A stretch of 64,000 bases of DNA from a virus (taxonomy: Duplodnaviria; Caudoviricetes), in the IMG/VR virus record IMGVR_UViG_3300037067_015211, positions 64,001 through 128,000 of that record; one strand, given 5' to 3'. Each line of letters starts with the position of its first letter. The first letter of the stretch is position 1. Below, piece by piece: positions 2,623 through 27,189 of the stretch. The position numbers and the translations under genes were made by a program. The notes under the pieces were generated by a model. That model did not search any database. It saw only the letters and a program-made list of their open reading frames with translations, and was not told the DNA's origin.

Positions 2623-5600
2623 CTATTTGTTTTTTGTTAATTCATTGTATTTTTTCATTAGCAATTCTTTGTCCGCGCCTTTAACGTCAAATGTAAACTT
2701 ATAAATCCACTTTGCATTGCCAGACTTAATCACCATATTTTGAAGTACATTTATCTGTTCTGGCAACAAACCTTTAATTGCATCAAAAAAATTACCGCTT
2801 TTAAAAGTCTTAAACAACTTATTATAATCCACATCATAACCTCTTTCAGTGGGTAAAATACCCCTATACTTTTTCATTATTTTCTTAACATCCGGACTTA
2901 ACTCATCATAATAAGAATAAGGAGTTTTAGCAGAATACTTTTTATCTAGCACATCTTTAATCCACCTAGATTCACCCTTTTCAAACTTAGTAAAAATTGA
3001 TCCGGTATTGTGTTCAATATCATTGATTCTATCGATAATATACATTAGCTTTTTATGATCTGTTACAGAAGTATTTTTAAGGTCAATCAAATACTGAGTA
3101 ATAGCTGCCCATCTAGGTCCACCATATTGATAAGCCCAAGGAAGTTCATTAAATACCCTATGTGCCAATTCAAGGGGAATATAATCTCTTTCGCCATTCA
3201 AAATATGATCCGCTTGCTCTTTCGAAATATTTAACTTCTTTGCCAACTCATCTGCATTATTAATACCAGTTCTATTGCCCACATATCCAAAATACATATG
3301 CTCATCATATACCGCCTTGGTAAGATTCTTCACATATTCGTCTTTAACCTCTTCCAAAATCTGATAAGCCACTTGTTTATCTTCATCGTCTAACTGATCC
3401 ATCACAGTAGATAGAGCATAAAAATCATATACTTGTGATGGCTGTAAAGCTAGTCTTTTACGCCATGTATTGTATATCATATTTGCTGACACTTCCCATG
3501 TTTGTGTGGGTTCATAATATTTCTTTGCATCTTCTGGCTTCATGGACTCCGGAAAATCCATTTGTCGCATACCCGGATCCAACTCCAACTCTTCCACATC
3601 GCTAAATTCTTCGTATTCGCTTTTATCCGTTAGACTGTTGCTCTCACGTATTTTTCCCCTAACGAAATCTTCGAATCCTTGGTCATGAATTCCGTATGTC
3701 ATATCGCCCCAGACAAATATAAAATCACCGCAGGCATTCTCGTATCTTCTCAAATCAATCCTACCAAGTGGATGTTCTATTTCTTTATCGCCTTCTCTTA
3801 CCAAATACGCGACCATCCCGCCTCTGGCTATTTTGCTAAACACATATTGTTTCTCGTCCCCATGCATAAATCCAGCCGCTCCGTAGTTTTTTAACTCCTC
3901 GGGCCTCAATGTAAGGCAGGATGTCCATCCCCGGTCCGTGCTCATCCCAGCAATATCTTCCGGTTTATGCGTGAATACGATAAAATGCGGCTGTTGCGAT
4001 TTAATACCACCCTGTAAGCGATCTACAAAAATGGCTAGTAATTCAGGTTGGTCCTTTAGAAGCTTCCCTATGCCTATTTCTCGGCCTGTACGGGCATTTT
4101 GAGCGAGTCCTTGCCGATAATCAACAATTTGGTAACCGTTCCTGAGCAAATGAGATTCCAAGTTCCAAGGCACTTGAATTTTGTCTGCCTTTGGGGTGTA
4201 TGGAAAATATGTCCGCTCTTGCTGGAAGAGCAGCCCCCAAGTAAGTGATTTTGGTCTTTTCTTGGCATATTCTTCCGCCGCTTTTAACTCTTCTTCAGAA
4301 AGTTTGGATTGCTTCTGCCATGTGGTGTAGATAGATGCGAATTTTTTATTTTTTAACTCCTCATATTTTTTCATCAACAATTTTTTATTAGCTCCATTTA
4401 CACCTTCGGCAAAACGGTAAATCCAATGTTCATTGCCAGACCTAATTATTGCATCTTGTAATTTGGATATATTGACTCCCTTAATATCCTTGGCAACCTT
4501 ATAAATTAAAGGCCCATAGAAAAAAAGGTTTCCTTCCTCATCGTCGTTTGCGGTTTTCGCGGTTAGCCTATTTTCTACTATTTTTAGAGCATCTCTTTCG
4601 TCCTTAGTGTATTGACTTACTTCTTTTTTATCACTTTGTCCTTCAATCCTGCCAAAATTATCCAAAAAATATTGTTCACTTGAACGCCATAAATCATTAT
4701 TGCTTACAATCTCCAGCCAAGAATAAGTATTAAGCTTAGTTCCCATAACCTCTAAATTATTATCCTCGATCCACTTCCTTACGAACGGCATATACTCACT
4801 GTTTGGTCTACTATCGGACTTCCCATATACTTGCCAGACTTCATTGCCCCTTACATCAATCGTTACATGAGGCTCATTGGTAGAATCTCTTAAAGAATAT
4901 ATCTCTTTCTCGCCGCTCTCTACGTCCCGCCAATAATTTTCTCCCCCCACACAATGCCCCATCTTGTTGCCTTCTTCAACAAGATCGACATTACTGTGGA
5001 TATTTACCATCTTCATAGACTGGCCATCTACGGTAATTGTTTGGTCTCCTAGATGACCTACGCGGTATTCCTCTACTTTTTCTACGCTGGAACCGCCCGT
5101 ACCAATACGATGCCATTCATAAGAAGAATTAACCGCCTCATCATAAGACATATTTGAAACTTCTGCATATCCAACATCTATATACCAGTCATAAACTTCA
5201 TTTAAAGATTGCCGATTGCTCGAAATGTATCCACCCTTTACCCAGCCAACAAACTTTTCCATTATCGTTTGCATGCCACCTCTATCTGTTGGTGGATATT
5301 GTTTAACTATTCCTTCTATTCTAATCAAATATTTGCTATCATCTGCATTCAACTGTGACTTGTCTTCCTCTATCTCTAACTTTTTGTTGGGAATCAAAAT
5401 TTCCCAAGTCTTCTTGGAATCCTTTTGGGACAGGCCCATTATCTTAGTATAGTTGTTAATAATGAAGTTTGGGTCTTGCTTAATGGCCTTTATGGGTACC
5501 ACGACATTAGCCGGTAGATTAAACTCCTGTCTAACTAGGTCCGCTATCTCCTTACTTTTTACCTGCTCACCCTGCATGGAGTCTTGTAGCCTATCTACTA

Positions 5601-10795: not shown

Positions 10796-10900
10796 CGGAT
10801 AGCAAACCAACAATCTCATTTAATCGTGTCCGCAACGAGCCTTGTCCATACACCTATGGGCACTTTCAAGAGCCGAAATGTCAGCTTGCCATCAAGCGGA
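10796..10900 (-). ncRNA. Unassigned structured RNA at the head of the tRNA operon
   Basis: GAUGGCAAGCUGACA pairs with UGUUGGUUUGCUAUC (15 bp, 4 G-U) and encloses small hairpins; lies just downstream of a promoter. Confidence 0.55.
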
Positions 10901-10909
10901 CTAACATCT

Positions 10910-10937
10910 AGTATATGCGTGATTTTCAGTTTGTCAA
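10910..10937 (-). promoter_or_regulatory. Promoter TTGACA-N16-TATACT for the tRNA cluster
   Basis: Near-consensus elements between the terminator and the RNA genes. Confidence 0.7.
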
Positions 10938-16925: not shown

Positions 16926-19900
16926 TTAGTTTTTACTCAGCTCTATTTTTTTCTTCTTTTTCTTCTCGCCAATGAAAAATTTTTGCACTTCAGGAGCGGC
17001 CACTTCTTTGGCAATACTAAGAACTATATCTTTCTTGGCCAACCTCACCGTATGTTTAGAGTCCAAACTATAATCGGCATCTGAATACTGATATTTGCCA
17101 GTCGTGTTTACATACCTATTCTCCGGCGTTTCAGGCAACCCGTCAATGTTAAAATCAGTATATCCAGTGCCCATGCTGACCATACGACACTTATACATAT
17201 CACGCAAATCTTTTGCAAATAATTTCCATGCCGTCTCAATCTGCTCTTTTGTCTTGTCCAGAGAAATATCCTGCCACTTTAAATCGCCCGTATTTATTGT
17301 CTTACCCGATTTATAGTACAAATAGTTTGCCGCCAAACTTTGGCCTTCTTGTACATCATCTTCATCATCGTCGTCTTTGACGAACATATCGTGGAATTCA
17401 ATGGAATCGAATAGTAAATAGTTGTCTGCCGGTTTAACCAACAAAATAGCCTTTTTGTCTTCATTCCACATTAAACCGTACCAGCCTATAACACTCTCGC
17501 CGTCTATATTTTCGTCAAAGTAGTATTCTTTTGTGCTAAATGCCCTGTAGGGAGATATTTCCAGCTTAGACAATTCTTGATATTTTTCAGTATCCTTGTC
17601 AACTATAACCAATTTGTTAGTCGGGTTCTCTGTGTGATAATAAAGTATCCCCTGTGATACTGGTATTTCGTCGCCCTCTCTATAGAGTACGGAGAATGCA
17701 TGGTTGGGGCTTAGATAACCACGCTCCATAGCAGTCTGCCCCGCACCACCTAGCTTTTGGCAACACGATGTCAATAGCCTTTCGCCCAATACCAACCCAA
17801 GCGGATCGTCCTTGCGTAAAATTTCAAGCCTATATTTGTGGCCATCTACAGTGTACACCTTTTGCAAGGGTTTAATACTCGCCATCTCTACATCGCCAAA
17901 AGCAGTGTCCCGAGAAAGCCTTTCCACAAACTCGTCAATAGATTCCTTGGAACTTTCAGAGTATTTATACATCGTATTTTTGTGTATCGATAATGGCGTA
18001 TCGGCTGTATCTACGGCAACATTTGTGTCCACCTTCAGTAGTTCCACCACTGACGGCAATTTAACCTTTTTCATTTCCTCGTCTACTAGCTTTTTTAGCT
18101 CCTTGGGGCCACTGATTTGTATTAGGGCATCTTTGTCCTGTTGCTTCAAATCCGCTTCAATAGAAGCCCGTTTCTGGCCCATATAGACAGGAATCTTAGC
18201 CGCCGCGCTAACTAGATCGGCAAATATTTGATAATCCGCCCGTCTAACCAAATAAGACAACACCAGATTGCCAAATTGTTTGTCCTTTGTAGCGTTTTGA
18301 AAGTTTTCACCCTGTAATGCTACGGCTATATCGTGCAAGCTTGTGTTTCGCTTTAACTGGGCATTGTAGACAATTTTTATTTTCTTCAACCCACCCGTAT
18401 TTTTGCCGCCCATAAGATCCGCCAGTGCATCTATTGGGTTTTCGCCGACGATATCCTTAATCGAATTCGCCTCATCGTTAAATAGTTTGTTCTTTACATC
18501 TTCGGAATAGAGATTAGACTCTGGTTTAGGCACATTTAAATTATTGATTTTAGTCGCCAAATTTATTGTATCGACGACCTTAGATTTTTCAAACCATGCC
18601 TCTCTGTCGTCATATTCATTGAAGTTTACAGAGTAGTTTGCAAGATTCGCCAATAATTTTTCCCTTTCTGGCTCATCCAAATTCCAACTATCAAGTACAT
18701 ATATAGGATCATGATTTCTAATGCCTGCTTTTAATATGAGATTTTTTTCCTCGAAAGAAAGCGTGGCAACCCCAGATGATTTTCGATAATAATTACCCCA
18801 TAAAGGTGAATGAAAGAAATTCTTGTCAAACAGCGCAGATTTTAATAGATTAGTTTTGTTTATATTTATGGAAAATTCACCATCTTTACTTCTTATTTCA
18901 TTGCCATTGCCTTCTGGGCCAGTCAATATAACATATGCAAACTTTTTGTCGAAAGAATATTTATCGTATTGTTCCTGAAGAAGATCATTATTCAAATCTT
19001 TGTATACCGGTTGTCTGCCGCATCTTAGCGCAGAATTAATAATCGTGGCTATAATGCCTTTTTCATATTTTTCATATATGTCAAATATTCTTGACCAATC
19101 TAGTTTGATAATGGGTTCTTCTTTATGCGTTGTTAATTTAATAAAATATATCGTACCATAACTTTGTCCTGCGTAATCGTCTAATAGTTTGTAAAACTGA
19201 TCTTCGGTCGGGACAAAATTATTGGCTTGCAAAAAATCGATAAAATCATTCATGTTACTATTTGGCGATACGGATATATTGTCAATTATAGTTAAAATCA
19301 TTTTTTTGTTAAATTCGGCACCATAAATACCTTTAAATTGTGACGACATACTTATTTTATCTTCGGCATCGTCTCTTGACAAATATGTTATCACCGCATC
19401 CTTCAAATCAATGTTACTTTCTCCCGCCCTTATTTTATTGAACATTAGCGCAAGAAAATTCGACAAACTATCTGTATTTATCCTATTGATGTTTTCCAAG
19501 ACGGGAGAATACATATCTTTTTCATTCTCTTTTGATACGCCCATAACAAGGGCAACATTTCTTCTGGTAATTAAAGTGGCATATGCGCTCAAATCATTGT
19601 CTTTACAATATTGCATGAATGATTTTGTTGTATTTTCATCAGAAAAAATATCGCGAGACTTTAATGTTTCTCTAATTACTTTGTAAAAATAATTTTCTTT
19701 TTCTGCTATCTGGGCAGACTCTAATATCTTTTTATATTCCTCGTCCGTAAGCATAATGTTTGTATGGCGCATTATCTGATCTAATATAGCATTAATGTAA
19801 TCAGACAACTCGCTGGTAGAAAATTTATCTATTGCATAGTAAAAAGAATACAGGATACTACTCCACAATGCTTTTACTAACGTCAAATCAAGCTTTAATG

Positions 19901-20939
19901 CATCCAAAATCTTTTGTATCTTATCTTTGTCAGAAGAAAACCTTTCCAACATATCCTTTACTACCAATATATCCGGAGTGAAATTTAGTTTAGCCAACTC
20001 TTCTAACAAGGCGTTAAAAAATAGAGTAGAAAATTTTTCATTCTCTATCGAGACAAAAGTATGAAACAATGCTAAATTTATAACCCCGTCTTTCGTTAAA
20101 AAATTACTCTTAAAAAATGTAATGTAATCAAGATTATCATAAGTTACAATAAATCTATATCCGGCCATTTGAGTACATCTATTTAAAGCAAACAATATTT
20201 TTTCCGGATGCATCACCTTATTGGCAATAGCAAAGTTTAAGAGCAAAGTATTTGTTTCCACACCCCCTAACGACTCTTTATATTTTACCAACAAATCATC
20301 TAACACTCTATCGTTGGTGTATTCTTCTCCAAGAACTTCTCTGTCTTTAGATAAATCCCATGCTTCACTATATGTAGAAATGTCTGTTAAATTGTTGAAC
20401 AACAACTCTTTTGCCTTTGTGTATTGCGCGTCAGAAAATATAGTCCTATACTCTTTCATAAGAAATTTGACTCTATTCAAATCACTGGGCAAAAACTGCC
20501 CGCTATAATGAAACAATATATTTATTACAAACATTGGAATGTGCTGTTTTGGTATAAGAAACGATCTTTCACTACGTAACATTACATCAAAAAACCATCC
20601 CTTATTATCTTCATTAACATAAAATTCCATAATGGACAAAAAATTAGAGCTAAATTTTTCACTAATTTTATCTGCTATGTATTTCGGAGTGCCAGTGACA
20701 ATACATCTGGGATAATTGTATGCGGCCACTGTAGTCAAATAATCTATTTCATTGACTGGCAATTGTGACAATAAGTTTGGCTCCCCAAAAACTATTTGGG
20801 TAAAATAACTTGTTTCTAGCGCATTGATGTTGTCAAATAATTCATCATTAGGATGTTCCTCACGAAGTATTCGCGCTAGTGTAGGAATTTTACTCTCATC
20901 CGTATTCAACACTGCTTGTCGTTTATTGCTTAGTTTCAT
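16926..20939 (-). CDS. ~1337-aa paralog of 12621-16913
   Basis: C-terminal ~500 aa clearly homologous (ADLMGGKNTGG...KDDPLG...CCQ...GTGYTDF...YSDADYS); start moved to MKLSNKRQA. Confidence 0.8.
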   Translation of the reverse strand: MKLSNKRQAVLNTDESKIPTLARILREEHPNDELFDNINALETSYFTQIVFGEPNLLSQLPVNEIDYLTTVAAYNYPRCIVTGTPKYIADKISEKFSSNFLSIMEFYVNEDNKGWFFDVMLRSERSFLIPKQHIPMFVINILFHYSGQFLPSDLNRVKFLMKEYRTIFSDAQYTKAKELLFNNLTDISTYSEAWDLSKDREVLGEEYTNDRVLDDLLVKYKESLGGVETNTLLLNFAIANKVMHPEKILFALNRCTQMAGYRFIVTYDNLDYITFFKSNFLTKDGVINLALFHTFVSIENEKFSTLFFNALLEELAKLNFTPDILVVKDMLERFSSDKDKIQKILDALKLDLTLVKALWSSILYSFYYAIDKFSTSELSDYINAILDQIMRHTNIMLTDEEYKKILESAQIAEKENYFYKVIRETLKSRDIFSDENTTKSFMQYCKDNDLSAYATLITRRNVALVMGVSKENEKDMYSPVLENINRINTDSLSNFLALMFNKIRAGESNIDLKDAVITYLSRDDAEDKISMSSQFKGIYGAEFNKKMILTIIDNISVSPNSNMNDFIDFLQANNFVPTEDQFYKLLDDYAGQSYGTIYFIKLTTHKEEPIIKLDWSRIFDIYEKYEKGIIATIINSALRCGRQPVYKDLNNDLLQEQYDKYSFDKKFAYVILTGPEGNGNEIRSKDGEFSININKTNLLKSALFDKNFFHSPLWGNYYRKSSGVATLSFEEKNLILKAGIRNHDPIYVLDSWNLDEPEREKLLANLANYSVNFNEYDDREAWFEKSKVVDTINLATKINNLNVPKPESNLYSEDVKNKLFNDEANSIKDIVGENPIDALADLMGGKNTGGLKKIKIVYNAQLKRNTSLHDIAVALQGENFQNATKDKQFGNLVLSYLVRRADYQIFADLVSAAAKIPVYMGQKRASIEADLKQQDKDALIQISGPKELKKLVDEEMKKVKLPSVVELLKVDTNVAVDTADTPLSIHKNTMYKYSESSKESIDEFVERLSRDTAFGDVEMASIKPLQKVYTVDGHKYRLEILRKDDPLGLVLGERLLTSCCQKLGGAGQTAMERGYLSPNHAFSVLYREGDEIPVSQGILYYHTENPTNKLVIVDKDTEKYQELSKLEISPYRAFSTKEYYFDENIDGESVIGWYGLMWNEDKKAILLVKPADNYLLFDSIEFHDMFVKDDDDEDDVQEGQSLAANYLYYKSGKTINTGDLKWQDISLDKTKEQIETAWKLFAKDLRDMYKCRMVSMGTGYTDFNIDGLPETPENRYVNTTGKYQYSDADYSLDSKHTVRLAKKDIVLSIAKEVAAPEVQKFFIGEKKKKKKIELSKN

Positions 20940-21360
20940 TTTTTTTGATCCTATCAATTGCCTTGACCAAATCCAATATCGAAAACCATCGTATATCGTT
21001 CTTCTTCTCGTCGAACCACCACGTACTCAAATTACTTTGCTTCATATCCACCCACGCCAAATAGTGCAAACTAACCTCACACAAAAGAGCGTCCCAGTTG
21101 TCATTTTTTCCGGGCAACATGAATACATCTTCTTTTGTTCTAGGTGGCTCCATGTTCCCGCTTAAAAGAAAATGATTAAGCGCAATCCACACACTCCCCT
21201 GTATCGTCACAGGATCGCCCAAATCACTAGATATCCCATCATAGAATATTTGCATATCGTAATACAAATCGACACATTTTTCAACATACTCCATAAACTT
21301 ATTAAAGTCTTTGTAGCAAATAAGTTCCGTGATCTTCATGGGGATACTATCCGTGGACAT
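20923..21360 (-). CDS. Hypothetical protein
   Basis: SD AAGGA; packed in the run. Confidence 0.6.
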   Translation of the reverse strand: MSTDSIPMKITELICYKDFNKFMEYVEKCVDLYYDMQIFYDGISSDLGDPVTIQGSVWIALNHFLLSGNMEPPRTKEDVFMLPGKNDNWDALLCEVSLHYLAWVDMKQSNLSTWWFDEKKNDIRWFSILDLVKAIDRIKKNETKQ

Positions 21361-21686: not shown

Positions 21687-22370
21687 CTAAATTTTCATTA
21701 AATATTTATTTGCAAAATATTCATTGGCCTTGCTGGACCCATGATAGGCATTGCTCTCGTCTATTACCAGCATGGGATCGTTGGTGTTGTAGCCTAAACC
21801 ACCTACCATAGTGTCCAAGTTAGCCGCTGACCTGTTCCGCTTCCACTCGGCCAAGACGATATCCCTGTATTCGTCGTCCAAAAAGAATTGGGCATGCTTA
21901 AACTCGTGCTTAAATAGTCCGTCTATTTTGCCACCATTCTCAATGGCTTTTTTAATGGAATCGCCCATAGTTACTATGAGATAATATTTGGGAAGATCAT
22001 AATTGGCTTGAAACCAAAGTAGGACATCCCGCAGAAGCATTTCTACTGTGTTCAAAAAGCGTCCGCTCTTCCCGTCATCAAACAATTTGTAAAATTTATC
22101 AATCGTATCTGAAGATACATTCCACCCACACCAATCAGTCGCGTAGGTGAATTCCTCATTGCCAGATTGTTTTGTATACCAATCTTTGTATTCGTCTAGT
22201 GTAAAATATTTGCCTGCAAATTCAGGGGATTCTTGAAACTCAGAGAGTCTAGTAATTAGTGGGCCAATTATGACGGGATCATCGACGGCAATATAAATTA
22301 CGTTCCTATCGACTAGGTAAATCTCGCCCATTTCTCGAAAAGACGTAATGTATTCCCATTCAAACTTCAT
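21687..22370 (-). CDS. HExxH metallopeptidase-like protein
   Basis: FKHEFKHAQF...DE motif. Start moved to ATG 22370 because the longer ORF overlaps tRNA-Leu. Confidence 0.65.
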   Translation of the reverse strand: MKFEWEYITSFREMGEIYLVDRNVIYIAVDDPVIIGPLITRLSEFQESPEFAGKYFTLDEYKDWYTKQSGNEEFTYATDWCGWNVSSDTIDKFYKLFDDGKSGRFLNTVEMLLRDVLLWFQANYDLPKYYLIVTMGDSIKKAIENGGKIDGLFKHEFKHAQFFLDDEYRDIVLAEWKRNRSAANLDTMVGGLGYNTNDPMLVIDESNAYHGSSKANEYFANKYLMKI

Positions 22371-22582: not shown

Positions 22583-22605
22583 ATTTTTTCAATGAACCAA
22601 ATAGA

Positions 22606-23496
22606 TTATATGTACAATTTGCCCGTTGTCAAGCGTCTTTTTGTGTATTTTTTCTTGCACTTAACACATAAATCCCCGTCTGGGCCACGATATCTTCGAT
22701 GTAGCCACTCCCCACACTTTACGCACTGATATCGGAATATACCCTTAGCTTCCATCTTAGGCCCAGCAAACTTCGTGCTCCCATTAAAAAGGAGTGCATC
22801 ATCTGGAATTAGCCCATGATTTGCAAACAAATGTTTTGTCAAATCGGAAAGTTGCTTATATTTTTTTTCACACAATGGACAATGATAATTTTTTATCCTC
22901 TCTCTTGGAACACCCTCATGCATTGTGTGAAGATGTCTCTTATACAATCTCTTTTGAATCTTCGCCCCGCACACTTCACATGTTACGTACACCCCCTTTT
23001 TCTCATGTACATATTTCACATGTTCATCTCGTGTCCATTTTTTATTAAACACCCTTCCACATATTTTACATGTATAAAAAACTTTATGCAATTTTTCATG
23101 ATTGTTTTTTGCGCCCCTTGATCCTAATTCTTTCCCACATATAGAGCATTTATATTTTCTATCTAAAAAATGCTCCTTGCGCATATGCGTTTCAAGTCTT
23201 CCTCTTGATGCAAATATTTGTTGACACAAATAACATTTGTAATTTTTTTGATGCCGTTTAATATGTTCTTTTATTTTGACAATAAATTTACCACATATAG
23301 GGCACTTCTTCTTTTTCTTCGGTCCATGAACATATTTTTTATGACTCCAAAGACCATCATAATCGGCAAATCTTTTTCTGCATATATTACATTCATATTT
23401 CAGTTTATCATAATGTTTTTCCATATAATGATTTGACAAATGAGCCGGGCAATAAAATTTTTCTCCACAAAATTTACAAACATATTCATACTTCAT
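22606..23496 (-). CDS. Tandem C2H2 zinc-finger protein (8 fingers plus C-terminal Cys4)
   Basis: Eight CxxC...HxxxH/HxxxxH units, then CVKC...CVKC. Confidence 0.88.
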   Translation of the reverse strand: MKYEYVCKFCGEKFYCPAHLSNHYMEKHYDKLKYECNICRKRFADYDGLWSHKKYVHGPKKKKKCPICGKFIVKIKEHIKRHQKNYKCYLCQQIFASRGRLETHMRKEHFLDRKYKCSICGKELGSRGAKNNHEKLHKVFYTCKICGRVFNKKWTRDEHVKYVHEKKGVYVTCEVCGAKIQKRLYKRHLHTMHEGVPRERIKNYHCPLCEKKYKQLSDLTKHLFANHGLIPDDALLFNGSTKFAGPKMEAKGIFRYQCVKCGEWLHRRYRGPDGDLCVKCKKKYTKRRLTTGKLYI

Positions 23497-24370
23497 TGAT
23501 TCGGACTTCCTTGATATCTACGATCTTTCCATCTCTTCGGACAATCATTTCCAGCCAGCCACACGGAGACGGTTTCATGCCCTTGGAAATAGCATAGTTC
23601 CAACGATTATAGAGAGTAGCATCTAACATATCGCCTGTGATGCAAAGCCATGCGGTATGATCGTCCATTACTTCCGTGTCGTAATTCGGAATGAAGTCGT
23701 CCTTTTTAACAGCCTTTAGGTCGTGCATATGCCCAGAAAAAGCGGCCTGAATTTTGTGGAACTTGCCATTGTCCACAATGAAGCCGCCCCTATCTTGTAA
23801 GAATTCTCTTACTACTTTGATTTTACTATCTGCTCTAACCGCATTGGAACTACCATGTTTGCCGATAAAATATACGTCTTTGTATTTTTTGTTGTTCAAG
23901 GATAGCGTAAGCTTCACATCGGCCTCGACGCCCATGTATTTGCCACGCCAGCCATTGCATGTATTCATATCATCCAAAAACTCATGGACTACCCTATGGC
24001 CCTTGGCATGCATCTTGGCCTCATGGTTGCCGATAAAAAATCCAAGCACATGCTTTGCAATCGGCTTAAATAATTTTTTAAGCAACCTTTTTTGGTCAGT
24101 AACATCCATTTGGGCTTCAGTTGTTGCATCTTCTGCAATATCTACTGTGCAGAGATTAAATCTCTTATCATCGGGCAAAATGCACTCCATCATATCCCCG
24201 TAGGAGTAAATTCCTTTTACGCCCTTTACTGATTTTACTCTATCAGTAAATGCTTCCATCCCGTCAATTCTAGCACAACAATTGCCAATGTGCCAGTCCC
24301 CAGTATGAAAAATCGTTGCATACTCGGCTGTTCCCATGTAGATCGTGTTTTCAATAAGTTTTCTTGACAT
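23486..24370 (-). CDS. Calcineurin-like metallophosphoesterase
   Basis: GDWH, GDMME, GNHE, KHG, GHMH motifs. Confidence 0.85.
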   Translation of the reverse strand: MSRKLIENTIYMGTAEYATIFHTGDWHIGNCCARIDGMEAFTDRVKSVKGVKGIYSYGDMMECILPDDKRFNLCTVDIAEDATTEAQMDVTDQKRLLKKLFKPIAKHVLGFFIGNHEAKMHAKGHRVVHEFLDDMNTCNGWRGKYMGVEADVKLTLSLNNKKYKDVYFIGKHGSSNAVRADSKIKVVREFLQDRGGFIVDNGKFHKIQAAFSGHMHDLKAVKKDDFIPNYDTEVMDDHTAWLCITGDMLDATLYNRWNYAISKGMKPSPCGWLEMIVRRDGKIVDIKEVRINEV

Positions 24371-24379
24371 TTTTTTCTC

Positions 24380-26356
24380 CTAAATGATTCCCATACCGCC
24401 GCCGCTTCTTGGTCTGATATTTCCTCTACCAGCCCTTTGCGGCTTAGATGATTCTCCACGATTCGCCAACTCGTTAAATCCCCCCACCCCTATAATACCC
24501 TTGGCAACTCTCGGCCTTGGCGGTGCCTCTGGAGCGTCTCCTGCTAAAATTTCTTCCACCACCCTAGCCACACATTCAATTTCGTCGTCAGTGGCCCCAA
24601 TCGATTTTTCAATTACAGTTCCCTTGTCTTCCAATCTTTCCGCTTCCCAAAGCAATTGATTGTCGTAAAAAATATCTAACCTTTGCCCATACCATAATTC
24701 CTTCAAACAGTTGAATGAGACAACGGTGGGCCGCTTCTTTTCACAAAGCATCCCCAACGAATTAAAATCCTGAATTGTTTCTGTCGATTGATATTGGTCT
24801 AAAGTTATCTTGTTAAAACGAAACTGAAAGCCCCGCTTTTGCAATAGGTTGATGAAAAACTTCTTGACATCCTTTATCCTAATTTCTTTGACTCCATTTG
24901 ACACAAATGATGCCGACAAATCAATAATTGCCGTTTTAAAACCAACTCCATCTATCGTTACATCCGGCCCCCTATGGCCTACACACAGCCCAACATGGTC
25001 GTTTATGGTAGCTAGGTCGATGTGAGCATAGTACCTAACGCTAGGATCATCATCGGCAAAAAAACTACCGTCTAACATCTGCCATGCGTCATTCGGATAA
25101 AACGGCAATAATTTGCCTTCAGGAGAAATAGGATTAGGCAATGGATCCACCCTAGCCCTGTTAATGTTTTCTTTAATCCTGTCCAGTTCCTTGAAAAATC
25201 TGCTAATAGCCATAGCGGGAATTGAAGCATTATTTCTCAAAAACCGCTCTGGATTATCTCGATATTCCGCTTCCAATGATTTGGGGACATCTAGTTCATA
25301 TACAATCTTTTCCCCCTTACGGTCTTCCCTCATTATGGAAATGTGAAATGTATGCCCGGCGTCAATATCAGGCTGATATTTGGGGTTTACTTCCCACGAT
25401 GGGTGTCGGCGTATCATGACCTTGCCATGAGGAACGCTAATAGGCGTATCTTTAATCCGATCCTTGGCAAACTCTTTGTATTCATTCTTATATCTACACT
25501 CTGCTTCAAACATGAATTCTTCAAAATACCTTGCTTCTGTCCCAGCCGTAGAAGTGCAGATTACCAGCCCTTTACACGCCGCATATTCGAAACGAGATTT
25601 TCTACGGTTGTTTACCATATAAAAAATATCTTGAAACAAATCTTCTGTTTTTGTGATAAAACAATCGTCAGCCGCGCATTCATCTACCCCGCAGAATAAA
25701 AGGTTAAAACCAGTAGGGGCAGATTTAAGAGAAGATTCGGCTGGCATAATTTCAAGTTCAGGGTAGCCCTTGAATTTAATTCTGCTCGTAACTTGTGGGT
25801 CAATTACAAATCCATTGCGTTCAAACCATTTGCATTTATTCACATTAGTATACAAGCCGGAGAATACAATGTCCTTGGCCTTATTGGCAGTCGGCCCTAC
25901 GTTCATAAAGGCAAATTTGCTTCCCTGCATCTGACCATAAAAGGTACACATTGATTTGAGATGTAGATTCCATAGCAAGAAATAGTATTCAGCTAGATAG
26001 GCAAATGTTGATTTACCGGCACCGAAGCCAGCATTGAAGAAAAATATTTCAGATATAGGCGCGTAATCTTCGCCTGAAAAAAGTATCTTTAAGTTTTCTA
26101 TGATCTTGGGGAATATTTCTTTTTCGTTACAGTTAAGGTAATTTTTCCCAAATATGGCCTCTTCAGGGGATGGTGGTCTTTCTTTCCATGTGGCGTTCTT
26201 AGAATTTTTAATGACAATATTGTTTGATAGATCGGCCACTTCGGATTTTTTGCTACTAATAAGCGCATCCAAATTAATTTTGCCCTTGATACCCAAAGCC
26301 TTTGTAATATCGGGCTTGTTGATGTTTGGGAGCGATTTCGGAGCGCGACGACCCAT
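24380..26356 (-). CDS. terL: Terminase large subunit
   Basis: Walker A GFGAGKST, Walker B CGVDE, C-motif CTST, RNase H-like HIDLA / ITLDQYQS / DDEIECVA. Confidence 0.85.
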   Translation of the reverse strand: MGRRAPKSLPNINKPDITKALGIKGKINLDALISSKKSEVADLSNNIVIKNSKNATWKERPPSPEEAIFGKNYLNCNEKEIFPKIIENLKILFSGEDYAPISEIFFFNAGFGAGKSTFAYLAEYYFLLWNLHLKSMCTFYGQMQGSKFAFMNVGPTANKAKDIVFSGLYTNVNKCKWFERNGFVIDPQVTSRIKFKGYPELEIMPAESSLKSAPTGFNLLFCGVDECAADDCFITKTEDLFQDIFYMVNNRRKSRFEYAACKGLVICTSTAGTEARYFEEFMFEAECRYKNEYKEFAKDRIKDTPISVPHGKVMIRRHPSWEVNPKYQPDIDAGHTFHISIMREDRKGEKIVYELDVPKSLEAEYRDNPERFLRNNASIPAMAISRFFKELDRIKENINRARVDPLPNPISPEGKLLPFYPNDAWQMLDGSFFADDDPSVRYYAHIDLATINDHVGLCVGHRGPDVTIDGVGFKTAIIDLSASFVSNGVKEIRIKDVKKFFINLLQKRGFQFRFNKITLDQYQSTETIQDFNSLGMLCEKKRPTVVSFNCLKELWYGQRLDIFYDNQLLWEAERLEDKGTVIEKSIGATDDEIECVARVVEEILAGDAPEAPPRPRVAKGIIGVGGFNELANRGESSKPQRAGRGNIRPRSGGGMGII

Positions 26357-27132: not shown

Positions 27133-27189
27133 AAATTTTTGAGGCAAGGAAACCGCCACCCTTGTGGTGGCGGAGGAATTGCCTCCCTC

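What the first reader, a model, noticed from the sequence alone, without database searches (positions are those of the whole stretch)
22606..23496. Eight tandem C2H2 zinc fingers in a bacteriophage gene
Seen: eight consecutive fingers (CKFC, CNIC, CPIC, CYLC, CSIC, CKIC, CEVC, CPLC). Several have the classical Y-x-C-x2-C-x3-F-x5-L-x2-H-x3/4-H spacing, with short linkers that are not TGEKP, followed by a Cys4 unit. The gene overlaps the phosphoesterase gene downstream of terL and ends just before two tRNAs. Known: poly-C2H2 arrays are typical of eukaryotes, while bacterial Ros/MucR proteins have a single finger. Inference: a long-site DNA- or RNA-binding regulator or packaging-site recogniser of unusual origin.
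Basis: partly seen in the sequence, partly recalled or inferred. Interest (0 to 1): 0.75.

Follow-up and report, generated by a model that had tools for sequence, protein, structure and literature searches.

The report
Eight-finger C2H2 protein in jumbo phage
An uncultured 212-kb bacterial virus really does carry a conserved gene for eight classical "eukaryote-style" zinc fingers in a row, sited in its DNA-packaging operon; this is rare for a phage, and the protein probably grips nucleic acid, but its job is unproven.

Summary
Window 22606-23496 (-) encodes a 296-aa, very basic protein (pI 9.7) with eight tandem C2H2 fingers and a C-terminal CxxC-x15-CxxC unit. Pfam scores are well above threshold, and AlphaFold predicts eight beta-beta-alpha units.

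It is not an assembly chimera. Two orthologues (57% and 47% identity) sit in the same gene order in independent assemblies, and codon usage fits the phage.

All zinc ligands and the finger number are invariant, but the surfaces evolve 2-4 times faster than the flanking TerL and phosphoesterase genes. The start codon overlaps the phosphoesterase stop by the same 11 nt in all three phages. The last nine codons double as a perfect sigma70 promoter for two conserved tRNAs.

An IMG/VR scan shows tandem C2H2 fingers are common in giant viruses and virophages, often fused to nuclease-like modules. In tailed prokaryotic viruses I found only two-finger modules, for example C2H2-HNH directly after TerL. 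I found no other eight-finger, nuclease-free array in a phage.

Best reading: a DNA-binding partner of the phosphoesterase/terminase module (inferred). This scan earlier noted C2H2-nuclease fusions on other DNA, and this same stretch in an overlapping window.

The parts
22606..23496 (-). Gene for a 296-aa protein with eight C2H2 fingers and a Cys4 unit (P0001)
   Evidence: ORF; Pfam zf-C2H2_4 and zf-C2H2 above cut-off; orthologues P0002 and P0003
22816..23484 (-). Array of eight C2H2 fingers (residues 5-227)
   Evidence: Regex parse with identical finger order and near-identical linker lengths in three orthologues; eight beta-beta-alpha units in the AlphaFold model; all Cys and His ligands invariant
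22633..22740 (-). C-terminal CxxC-x15-CxxC unit plus basic KKKYTKRR tail (residues 253-288); with finger 3, the best-conserved part
   Evidence: Mean pairwise identity 0.74; only sub-threshold hits to DUF7573 and Zn_ribbon_8; pLDDT below 50, so the fold is not established
22605..22632 (-). Perfect sigma70-type promoter (TTGACA-N16-TATAAT) embedded in the last nine codons and the stop codon, aimed at the tRNA pair
   Evidence: 12 of 12 consensus match; conserved in L005, and free-standing downstream of the shorter ORF in L008; member of a class of 34 near-consensus promoters in the genome
22420..22582 (-). tRNA-Arg(tct) and tRNA-Leu(taa), conserved directly downstream in all three phages
   Evidence: ARAGORN; Rfam tRNA
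23486..23496 (-). 11-nt overlap (ATGAARTATRA) between the phosphoesterase stop and the zinc-finger start; a translational-coupling signature
   Evidence: Same geometry in the window, L005 and L008; AAGGAAG Shine-Dalgarno-like sequence upstream
23486..24370 (-). Calcineurin-like metallophosphoesterase (294 aa) with intact DxH, GD, GNHE and GHxH motifs
   Evidence: PHROG 7339 'DNA repair exonuclease' at E=2.2e-9; Pfam Metallophos at E=0.016, below cut-off; motif residues invariant in three orthologues; found only in the same three lineages
24380..26356 (-). Large terminase subunit (TerL, 658 aa)
   Evidence: tblastn matches to 281 phage records annotated as terminase large subunit, about 24% identity over 85-89% of the query; 84% identical to the L005 orthologue
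27153..27173 (-). Terminator-like hairpin that probably marks the upstream edge of the transcription unit from the deaminase gene to the zinc-finger gene
   Evidence: 8-bp stem with 7 GC pairs, followed by a T-rich tail; pattern match only

Best explanation
This is a resident, selected gene of a small clade of uncultured jumbo tailed phages with a bacterial host. It encodes a strongly basic protein with no nuclease domain, made of eight classical C2H2 (beta-beta-alpha) zinc fingers followed by a small Cys4 unit and a Lys/Arg tail.

Shown:
- The fingers, their invariance and the fixed finger number.
- The conserved position TerL > metallophosphoesterase > zinc-finger gene.
- The conserved 11-nt stop/start overlap with the phosphoesterase gene.
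- Rapid divergence of all non-scaffold residues.

Inferred:
- The protein binds double-stranded DNA through several of its fingers.
- It is made in a fixed ratio with the phosphoesterase, as its DNA-recognition or anchoring partner.
- The pair assists DNA processing linked to genome packaging. This would parallel the accessory nucleases with zinc-binding modules that sit beside terminase genes in other phages.
- The fast-evolving finger surfaces would then track phage-specific DNA sites or partners, as small terminases do.
For: Reality and residency:
- Pfam scores are well above cut-off, and AlphaFold predicts eight beta-beta-alpha units.
- Orthologues at 57% and 47% identity have identical synteny.
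- The identical protein occurs in four independent sources.
- GC3 lies at the 18th percentile and codon adaptation at the 87th percentile of phage genes.

Selection:
- All ligands are invariant. Scaffold positions have identity 0.89 against 0.31-0.33 elsewhere.
- pN of 0.27-0.40 is far below the saturated pS of about 0.75.

DNA binding:
- pI is 9.7 with a net charge of about +44.
- The top PDB fold matches are CTCF, ZFP568 and TFIIIA in complex with DNA, at E=1e-10 to 1e-13.

Coupling to the phosphoesterase and terminase:
- The 11-nt overlap is the same in all three phages.
- The phosphoesterase has exactly the same three-lineage distribution, and its catalytic motifs are invariant.
- TerL lies directly upstream.

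Precedents:
- In L022, TerL is followed, with overlap, by a protein of two C2H2 fingers plus HNH.
- HNH endonucleases with adjacent zinc-ribbon proteins lie next to terminase genes (PMC3592412).
- HK97 gp74 promotes cos cleavage (PMC9410871).
- No recognisable small terminase was found with two Pfam families (weak evidence).
Against: - No binding, interaction or timing data exist.
- Canonical base-contact positions (-1, +2, +3, +6) are no more conserved than other surface residues (0.33 against 0.31).
- Linkers are not TGEKP, and two have only 5 residues, so canonical groove-tracking by all eight fingers is doubtful.
- It is unresolved whether the phosphoesterase is a nuclease or a phosphatase. 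Pfam is below cut-off, the best PDB sequence hit is lambda phosphatase at E=0.08, and the AlphaFold model failed at pLDDT 34.
- The TerL nuclease-domain motifs look intact by eye, so no helper nuclease is obviously required.
- Gene adjacency in a densely packed jumbo-phage genome is weak functional evidence.
- No long repeated candidate site was found in the genome.
Confidence: 0.4

Rival explanations
1. It is a phage transcription factor: a sequence-specific repressor or activator of phage or host promoters, unrelated in function to its neighbours.
For: - Most characterised C2H2 arrays are transcription factors, and the PDB neighbours are CTCF, ZFP568 and TFIIIA.
- The archaeal-virus finger protein AFV1p06 binds DNA (PMC3541406).
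- An actinophage-like contig fuses the WhiB transcription factor to two C2H2 fingers (L045).
- The gene's own 3' end carries a strong conserved promoter with a conserved leader, a conceivable operator.
Against: - The gene sits in the terL operon, translationally coupled to an enzyme.
- Base-contact residues are not conserved, although the promoter block next to the gene is nearly identical between the window and L005.
- No repeated long operator-like motif was found.
Confidence: 0.22
2. It is the DNA-reading half of a selfish, homing-type 'split zinc-finger nuclease' (phosphoesterase plus finger array), or a domesticated remnant of one.
For: - Long C2H2 arrays in IMG/VR are typically fused to nuclease-like modules. 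L058, L078, L060 and L061 share a C-terminal EFDGxQHF module, L061 hits the RAP domain, and L077 hits T5orf172.
- Two-finger modules are fused to HNH or endonuclease VII in tailed viruses.
- Fast evolution of finger surfaces is typical of such elements.
- Earlier scan notes describe similar fusions on other DNA.
Against: - The pair is present at the same locus in all three known lineages, between conserved core genes, with no presence/absence polymorphism.
- The protein has no nuclease domain.
- Metallophosphoesterases are not a known class of homing nuclease.
- The phosphoesterase is well conserved (74-75% identity).
Confidence: 0.1
3. It is an RNA-binding protein of the TFIIIA or JAZ kind, for instance acting on the adjacent tRNA precursors or on other phage RNAs.
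For: - The tRNA-Arg/tRNA-Leu pair and its promoter are conserved immediately downstream in all three phages.
- H-x4-H spacing and irregular linkers resemble mixed DNA/RNA binders.
- TFIIIA is among the best fold matches.
Against: - Adjacency to tRNAs may be incidental, since phage tRNAs cluster in gaps.
- There is only a weak zf-met hit (E=9.9e-6) and no zf-C2H2_jaz hit for this protein.
- No direct evidence exists.
Confidence: 0.08
4. It is a protein-interaction scaffold or a counter-defence or host-takeover factor, and the fingers contact proteins rather than nucleic acid.
For: - It is the fastest-evolving gene in a conserved block (dN 0.33-0.56 against 0.12-0.23), as expected in an arms race.
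- Many C2H2 fingers mediate protein contacts (general knowledge).
- The surfaces are not conserved.
Against: - The extreme positive charge points to nucleic acid.
- No PADLOC hit.
- The operon context is packaging and DNA metabolism, not an early host-takeover region.
Confidence: 0.12
5. It is an artefact: a chimeric assembly with eukaryotic or giant-virus DNA, or a non-coding stretch that only resembles a gene.
For: The nearest non-orthologous sequence and fold matches are eukaryotic or giant-virus proteins.
Against: - Three diverged orthologues have the same flanks in JGI, ENA and Logan assemblies.
- The 11-nt overlap with the upstream phage gene is conserved.
- A phage promoter lies inside the gene's 3' end.
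- Codon usage is typical of the phage.
- The ligands are invariant.
Confidence: 0.01

Closest known systems
Eukaryotic poly-C2H2 DNA-binding arrays (CTCF ZnF3-11, PDB 8ssq; ZFP568, PDB 5wjq; TFIIIA, PDB 8ffz)
   Same: - Tandem beta-beta-alpha fingers with C-x2-C-x12-H-x3/4-H ligands and the F/L hydrophobic core.
- Eight or more units in a row.
- Best Foldseek matches, at E=1e-10 to 1e-13.
   Different: - No TGEKP linkers; linker lengths are 5-12 residues.
- Mostly H-x4-H spacing.
- Two truncated fingers (x9 and x11).
- A C-terminal Cys4 unit, and no KRAB, BTB or ZAD effector domain.
- Encoded by a virus of bacteria.
- Sequence identity is only generic, at 20-34%.
C2H2-array proteins of giant viruses and virophages in IMG/VR (L058, L078, L060, L061 and L077, and the 157-aa four-finger family)
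   Same: - Viral, with tandem H-x4-H fingers, 7-residue linkers and no TGEKP.
- Up to eight fingers.
- Best BLASTP match is L060, at 34% identity over 168 aa.
   Different: - The long arrays there carry a C-terminal EFDGxQHF (RAP/PD-(D/E)xK-like) module or an N-terminal T5orf172 module. This protein has neither.
- Their carriers encode an NCLDV or Sputnik-type capsid, or ankyrin-repeat genes, so they are viruses of eukaryotes.
Terminase-adjacent accessory nucleases with zinc modules in tailed viruses (L022 C2H2x2-HNH after TerL; HK97 gp74; zinc-ribbon HNH endonucleases, PMC3592412)
   Same: - Position immediately downstream of or beside terL, with gene overlap.
- A zinc-binding DNA-recognition module combined with a metal-dependent hydrolase.
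   Different: - Here the hydrolase is a separate calcineurin-like phosphoesterase, not HNH.
- The zinc module is an eight-finger protein of its own.
- No activity is known.
AFV1p06 and other single-finger C2H2 proteins of archaeal viruses (PDB 2LVH; PMC3541406)
   Same: A classical zinc-finger fold in a virus of prokaryotes, with DNA binding shown for AFV1p06.
   Different: Those are 59-aa proteins with a single finger and an incomplete ligand set, in viruses of archaea. This is an eight-finger array in a phage that uses bacterial sigma70-type promoters.
Ros/MucR prokaryotic zinc-finger proteins
   Same: C2H2-type zinc coordination in a prokaryotic setting (general knowledge; PMC7710501 is listed).
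   Different: Ros/MucR proteins have one finger inside a larger globular domain. This protein has no Pfam ROS_MUCR hit, and its fingers are classical and tandem.

Membership tests
Classical C2H2 zinc finger (Pfam PF00096 / PF13894) | C-x2-4-C-x12-H-x3-5-H ligand spacing | tested here: met
   Six of eight fingers have x12; fingers 3 and 7 have x9 and x11; the His pairs are H-x3-H or H-x4-H
Classical C2H2 zinc finger (Pfam PF00096 / PF13894) | Profile score above the curated gathering threshold | tested here: met
   zf-C2H2_4 scores 71.8 bits against 27; zf-C2H2 scores 60.3 bits against 25.2
Classical C2H2 zinc finger (Pfam PF00096 / PF13894) | Beta-hairpin plus alpha-helix fold with a conserved aromatic (X4) and Leu (+4) core | tested here: met
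   AlphaFold shows eight EE..EE..H(10-13) units with pLDDT of 62-88 over fingers 1-7; X4 is F or Y with identity 0.78 and +4 Leu has identity 0.67. This is a prediction, not a solved structure
Classical C2H2 zinc finger (Pfam PF00096 / PF13894) | One zinc ion bound per finger | not testable with these tools
   Needs metal analysis of purified protein
Krueppel-type eukaryotic poly-zinc-finger array | Conserved TGEKP (H/C link) between fingers | tested here: not met
   None of the seven linkers matches in any of the three orthologues
Krueppel-type eukaryotic poly-zinc-finger array | Uniform 28-residue period with H-x3-H | tested here: not met
   Six of eight fingers are H-x4-H; linkers are 5-12 residues
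Ros/MucR prokaryotic zinc finger | A single finger within the ROS_MUCR domain | tested here: not met
   No ROS_MUCR hit among 16 Pfam families at E<=0.1; eight tandem fingers are present
Zinc-finger-array homing-type nucleases (C2H2 plus PD-(D/E)xK/RAP, HNH, EndoVII or T5orf172) | A nuclease domain in the same polypeptide | tested here: not met
   No nuclease family in Pfam, NCBIfam, PHROGs or PADLOC. Only 69 residues follow finger 8: a variable spacer and the Cys4 unit
Zinc-finger-array homing-type nucleases (C2H2 plus PD-(D/E)xK/RAP, HNH, EndoVII or T5orf172) | Sporadic, mobile distribution among related genomes | tested here: not met
   Present at the same locus in all three known lineages, but only three genomes are available
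Small terminase (TerS) | Membership of a TerS sequence family | tested here: not met
   No TerS family hit for this protein; no Terminase_2 or T4 gp16-type TerS anywhere in the genome
Small terminase (TerS) | Gene adjacent to terL, and oligomeric pac/cos-site binding | tested here: inconclusive
   The gene lies two genes downstream of terL in one operon. Oligomerisation and site binding cannot be tested here
Terminase-associated accessory nuclease (HK97 gp74 type) | HNH catalytic motif | tested here: not met
   No HNH hit in the zinc-finger protein or in the phosphoesterase

The most novel reading that the evidence does not exclude
The finger protein is the DNA-reading subunit of a two-gene, translationally coupled 'zinc-finger plus metallophosphoesterase' module. 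The module works with TerL to recognise or process the phage genome for packaging. This would be a C2H2-based functional replacement for a small terminase or an HNH helper, and a natural, bacterially active, modular long-site DNA reader.
Probability: 0.25. Interest if true: 0.8.

Novelty: new variant of a known kind. Interest (0 to 1): 0.6.

Why it matters
Long tandem C2H2 arrays are treated as a hallmark of eukaryotes. This one is stably maintained and evidently folds and functions in a virus of bacteria.

If it binds DNA, it would show that multi-finger recognition works natively in bacterial cytoplasm. It would also offer a compact natural scaffold without TGEKP linkers for engineering.

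Together with the short C2H2-nuclease modules found beside terminases, it would point to an unrecognised class of packaging or DNA-processing accessory factors in jumbo phages, where small terminases are often not identifiable.

It also adds a data point on how finger arrays spread among viruses of all three domains.

Tried and rejected
- tblastn of the protein against 50,697 GenBank phages found nothing, even at E<=5.
- IMG/VR and JGI metagenome scans with peptide patterns from the zinc-finger protein, the phosphoesterase and TerL found no further relatives. The tool may hide near-identical records.
- The exhaustive HMM search of 1.84 billion representatives was swamped by giant eukaryotic finger proteins (115,982 hits) and was useless for finding orthologues.
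- The phosphoesterase AlphaFold model failed (pLDDT 34) and was not used. Its PDB sequence search gave only non-significant hits.
- dN/dS could not be computed because dS is saturated.
- No long multi-copy motif emerged as a candidate binding site.
- I first read the recurrent 157-aa four-finger family as belonging to tailed phages, because of Ig-domain and helicase PHROG hits. Pfam then showed NCLDV major capsid genes next door, so I dropped that reading.
- The three 'Caudovirales' BFVD hits (A0A8S5SE92, A0A6J7XBM0, A0A6J7X9K6) could not be retrieved, so I could not check their finger count or their true carrier.

Full report
**1. The observation**

The ORF at window 22606..23496 on the minus strand is intact and encodes 296 residues. 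A regex parse finds eight units of the form C-x2-C-x9-12-H-x3-4-H at residues 7-28, 36-57, 65-82, 88-109, 117-137, 143-164, 173-193 and 206-227. A C258-x2-C261-x15-C277-x2-C280 unit follows.
- Six fingers have the classical x12 spacer with the aromatic residue at X4 and Leu at +4. Fingers 3 and 7 are shorter (x9 and x11).
- Six fingers are H-x4-H.
- Linkers are 7, 7, 5, 7, 5, 8 and 12 residues, and none is TGEKP.
- Pfam scores are far above threshold: zf-C2H2_4 at E=2.2e-20 (71.8 bits against 27) and zf-C2H2 at E=1.4e-16.
- AlphaFold, with only a three-sequence alignment, predicts eight successive hairpin-helix units. Mean pLDDT is 64, reaching 75-88 over fingers 1-3; the C-terminus is below 50.
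- The protein has pI 9.7, with 71 Lys+Arg against 27 Asp+Glu.

**2. The carrier is a tailed phage of bacteria, and the gene is not a chimera**

The window is bases 64001-128000 of a 212,568-bp IMG/VR virus record that CheckV rates 95% complete.
- The gene two places upstream is a large terminase. It gives 281 phage tblastn hits annotated as TerL, at about 24% identity.
- The genome has 34 near-consensus sigma70 promoters followed by GGAG-type ribosome sites, and seven tRNAs lie in the window.
- Two orthologues exist: P0002 (293 aa, 57% identity) and P0003 (302 aa, 47% identity).
- Both sit in the same gene order: dCMP deaminase, a 65-aa ORF, TerL, the phosphoesterase, the zinc-finger gene, tRNA-Arg(tct), tRNA-Leu(taa), then ORFs of 224, 85, 140 and about 1,330 aa. 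This holds on a 104-kb JGI contig, an ENA contig and Logan contigs.
- The identical protein is recorded from four independent sources.
- The gene's GC3 lies at the 18th percentile of the phage's genes, and its codon adaptation lies at the 87th.

Chimeric assembly is excluded.

**3. Evolutionary pattern**

All 32 finger ligands and the four Cys of the terminal unit are invariant. The finger number and order are the same in all three orthologues, and linker lengths differ by at most one residue.

Yet this is the fastest-evolving gene in the block. Its dN is 0.33-0.56, against 0.12 for TerL, 0.19 for the phosphoesterase and 0.14-0.30 for the small ORFs. Synonymous sites are saturated, with pS about 0.75, and pN is 0.27-0.40.

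Scaffold positions have a mean pairwise identity of 0.89. The canonical base-contact positions (-1, +2, +3, +6) have 0.33, the same as other surface positions at 0.31. The two best-kept modules are the atypical finger 3 with its poly-Lys lead-in (0.72) and the Cys4 unit (0.74). The fold is under strong constraint, while most surfaces drift or diversify.

**4. Anatomy of the locus**

The zinc-finger start codon lies inside the last codons of the phosphoesterase gene. The 11-nt overlap, ATGAARTATRA, is the same in all three phages, which is a translational-coupling signature.

At the other end, the last nine codons (...LTTGKLYI, stop) are a perfect TTGACA-N16-TATAAT promoter.
- In L005 this block is nearly identical at the DNA level.
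- In L008 the ORF ends about 60 nt earlier, and the same promoter stands free before tRNA-Arg.

The 'KLYI' tail is therefore conserved as DNA, not as protein, and the functional protein ends near KKKYTKRR. A terminator-like hairpin at 27173-27153 probably opens the transcription unit that runs from the deaminase gene to the zinc-finger gene.

**5. The partner**

The 294-aa upstream protein keeps the metallophosphoesterase motifs (GD-x-H, GD, GNHE, GH-x-H) invariant. It matches PHROG 7339 'DNA repair exonuclease' at E=2.2e-9.

Its Pfam Metallophos hit is below threshold. Its best PDB sequence hit, lambda phosphatase, is not significant, and its AlphaFold model failed. Whether it acts as a nuclease or a phosphatase is open.

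In 5.8 billion proteins it occurs only in the same three lineages as the finger protein.

**6. How unusual is the array?**
- Outside the three orthologues (513-552 bits), the next hits in the 5.8-billion-protein collection score 159 bits or less. All named ones are eukaryotic: animal or protist. One unnamed hit I checked, P0196, lies on a protist-like contig.
- PHROGs has only weak hits, to short finger families. GenBank phages gave nothing.
- The top-ranked jumbo-phage papers in the literature search showed no occurrence of 'C2H2', and I found no paper describing such an array in a bacteriophage.
- A degenerate two-finger DNA pattern nevertheless hit at least 120 stretches in IMG/VR.

Of the 80 loci fetched from that scan:
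- 37 carry a 157-aa protein with three C2H2 fingers plus one C2HC finger. In the two carriers examined, an NCLDV major capsid gene lies nearby.
- The 5-8-finger ORFs of L058, L078, L060 and L061 share a C-terminal EFDGxQHF module, and L061 hits the RAP domain. L077 has a T5orf172 domain.
- L078 lies beside a Sputnik-type virophage capsid gene, and L058 lies beside ankyrin-repeat genes.
- Contigs from prokaryotic viruses do carry C2H2 fingers, but as two-finger modules. L022 has TerL followed, with overlap, by C2H2x2-HNH. L036 has C2H2x2-HNH. L086 has C2H2x2-endonuclease VII next to a minor tail protein. L045 has WhiB-C2H2x2. L027 has C2H2x2-DUF3268 near RecT.
- BFVD lists three weakly similar 'Caudovirales' proteins of 265-304 aa that I could not retrieve.

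I found no other eight-finger, nuclease-free array in a tailed phage.

**7. Mechanism**

The most economical reading is a DNA-binding protein, made together with the phosphoesterase, that acts with the packaging machinery. It rests on four points:
- the charge and fold;
- the conserved coupling to the phosphoesterase;
- co-distribution of the two genes;
- the terL context.

There are also precedents for zinc-module nucleases beside terminases: L022, PMC3592412 and HK97 gp74.

This reading is inference. The irregular linkers and the unconserved contact residues argue against a simple 24-bp canonical readout. The rivals are a transcription factor, a domesticated or selfish split nuclease, an RNA binder and a protein scaffold or counter-defence factor. 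I put the packaging-partner reading at about 0.4, and the bare statement that this is a real, selected, nucleic-acid-binding phage C2H2 array at about 0.85.

**8. Relation to earlier notes of this scan**

Earlier notes describe C2H2 arrays fused to nucleases in an Asgard archaeon and in a T4-like phage intein, and nuclease-free Cys4 arrays in a giant phage. They prompted my test for nuclease association. I confirmed the general pattern independently on IMG/VR loci, but found that this protein does not share it.

**9. Verdict**

This is a genuine and rare feature: a new variant of a known domain architecture in an unexpected host class. It is well supported as a gene and unresolved in function.

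Noticed in passing
window 22605-22632 (-); L005 about 10880-10910; L008 about 3440-3470: A perfect sigma70 promoter for the tRNA-Arg/tRNA-Leu pair is encoded by the last nine codons of the zinc-finger gene in two phages and stands free in the third. The downstream leader GTTCATTGAA is invariant in all three, although synonymous sites are saturated.
   Followed up: yes
whole genome G000; in the window, e.g. 5326, 18221, 23211, 29417: Inverted repeats of the form CAAA-N2-4-TTTG are strongly over-represented. CAAATATTTG occurs 13 times in the window against 0.44 expected. There are about 290 sites genome-wide, 5-12 times more than composition-matched controls. The motif is also enriched in the related phage L005 and lies mostly inside genes. 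It is unexplained.
   Followed up: partly
window 21687-22361 (-): The conserved 224-aa ORF just downstream of the tRNAs contains an HEFKH (HExxH) motif, suggesting a zinc metalloprotease-like protein. It has no Pfam, PHROG or NCBIfam hit.
   Followed up: partly
window 22606-23424 (IMG gene call, P0256, 272 aa): The IMG gene call and the ESM Atlas entry start at Met25 and so delete finger 1. Orthologue conservation and the coupled start support the 296-aa form.
   Followed up: yes
L019:2816-4102, L025:3100-4383 and 37 loci: A widespread 157-aa protein family (three C2H2 fingers plus one C2HC finger, 33-62% identity to L051 within the family) lies near NCLDV major capsid genes in IMG/VR contigs. 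PHROG Ig-domain and helicase hits alone would have misclassified the carriers as tailed phages.
   Followed up: yes
L058:1776-2948, L078:1134-2255, L060:5567-6487, L061:2755-3783, L077:5208-6557: These look like natural C2H2-array nucleases. Arrays of 5-8 fingers are fused to a shared C-terminal EFDGxQHF (RAP/PD-(D/E)xK-like) module or to an N-terminal T5orf172 domain. L078 is on a Sputnik-type virophage contig; the other carriers look giant-virus-like but were not all classified.
   Followed up: partly
L022:766-2792; L045:580-1050; L086:3289-3924: Prokaryotic-virus contigs carry two-finger C2H2 modules: TerL followed, with overlap, by C2H2x2-HNH (L022); a WhiB-C2H2x2 fusion (L045); and C2H2x2-endonuclease VII beside a minor tail protein (L086).
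   Followed up: partly
L005:181-1422: A TnpB / IS605 OrfB-type gene (Cas12f1-like TNB domain) lies upstream of the helicase gene in the related 104-kb phage contig. I did not check whether the window has one at the same place.
   Followed up: no
window 16926-20957 (-): The 1343-aa ORFan downstream is 79% identical to its L005 orthologue but only 43% identical to its L008 orthologue. This divergence pattern is much more uneven than that of its neighbours.
   Followed up: no
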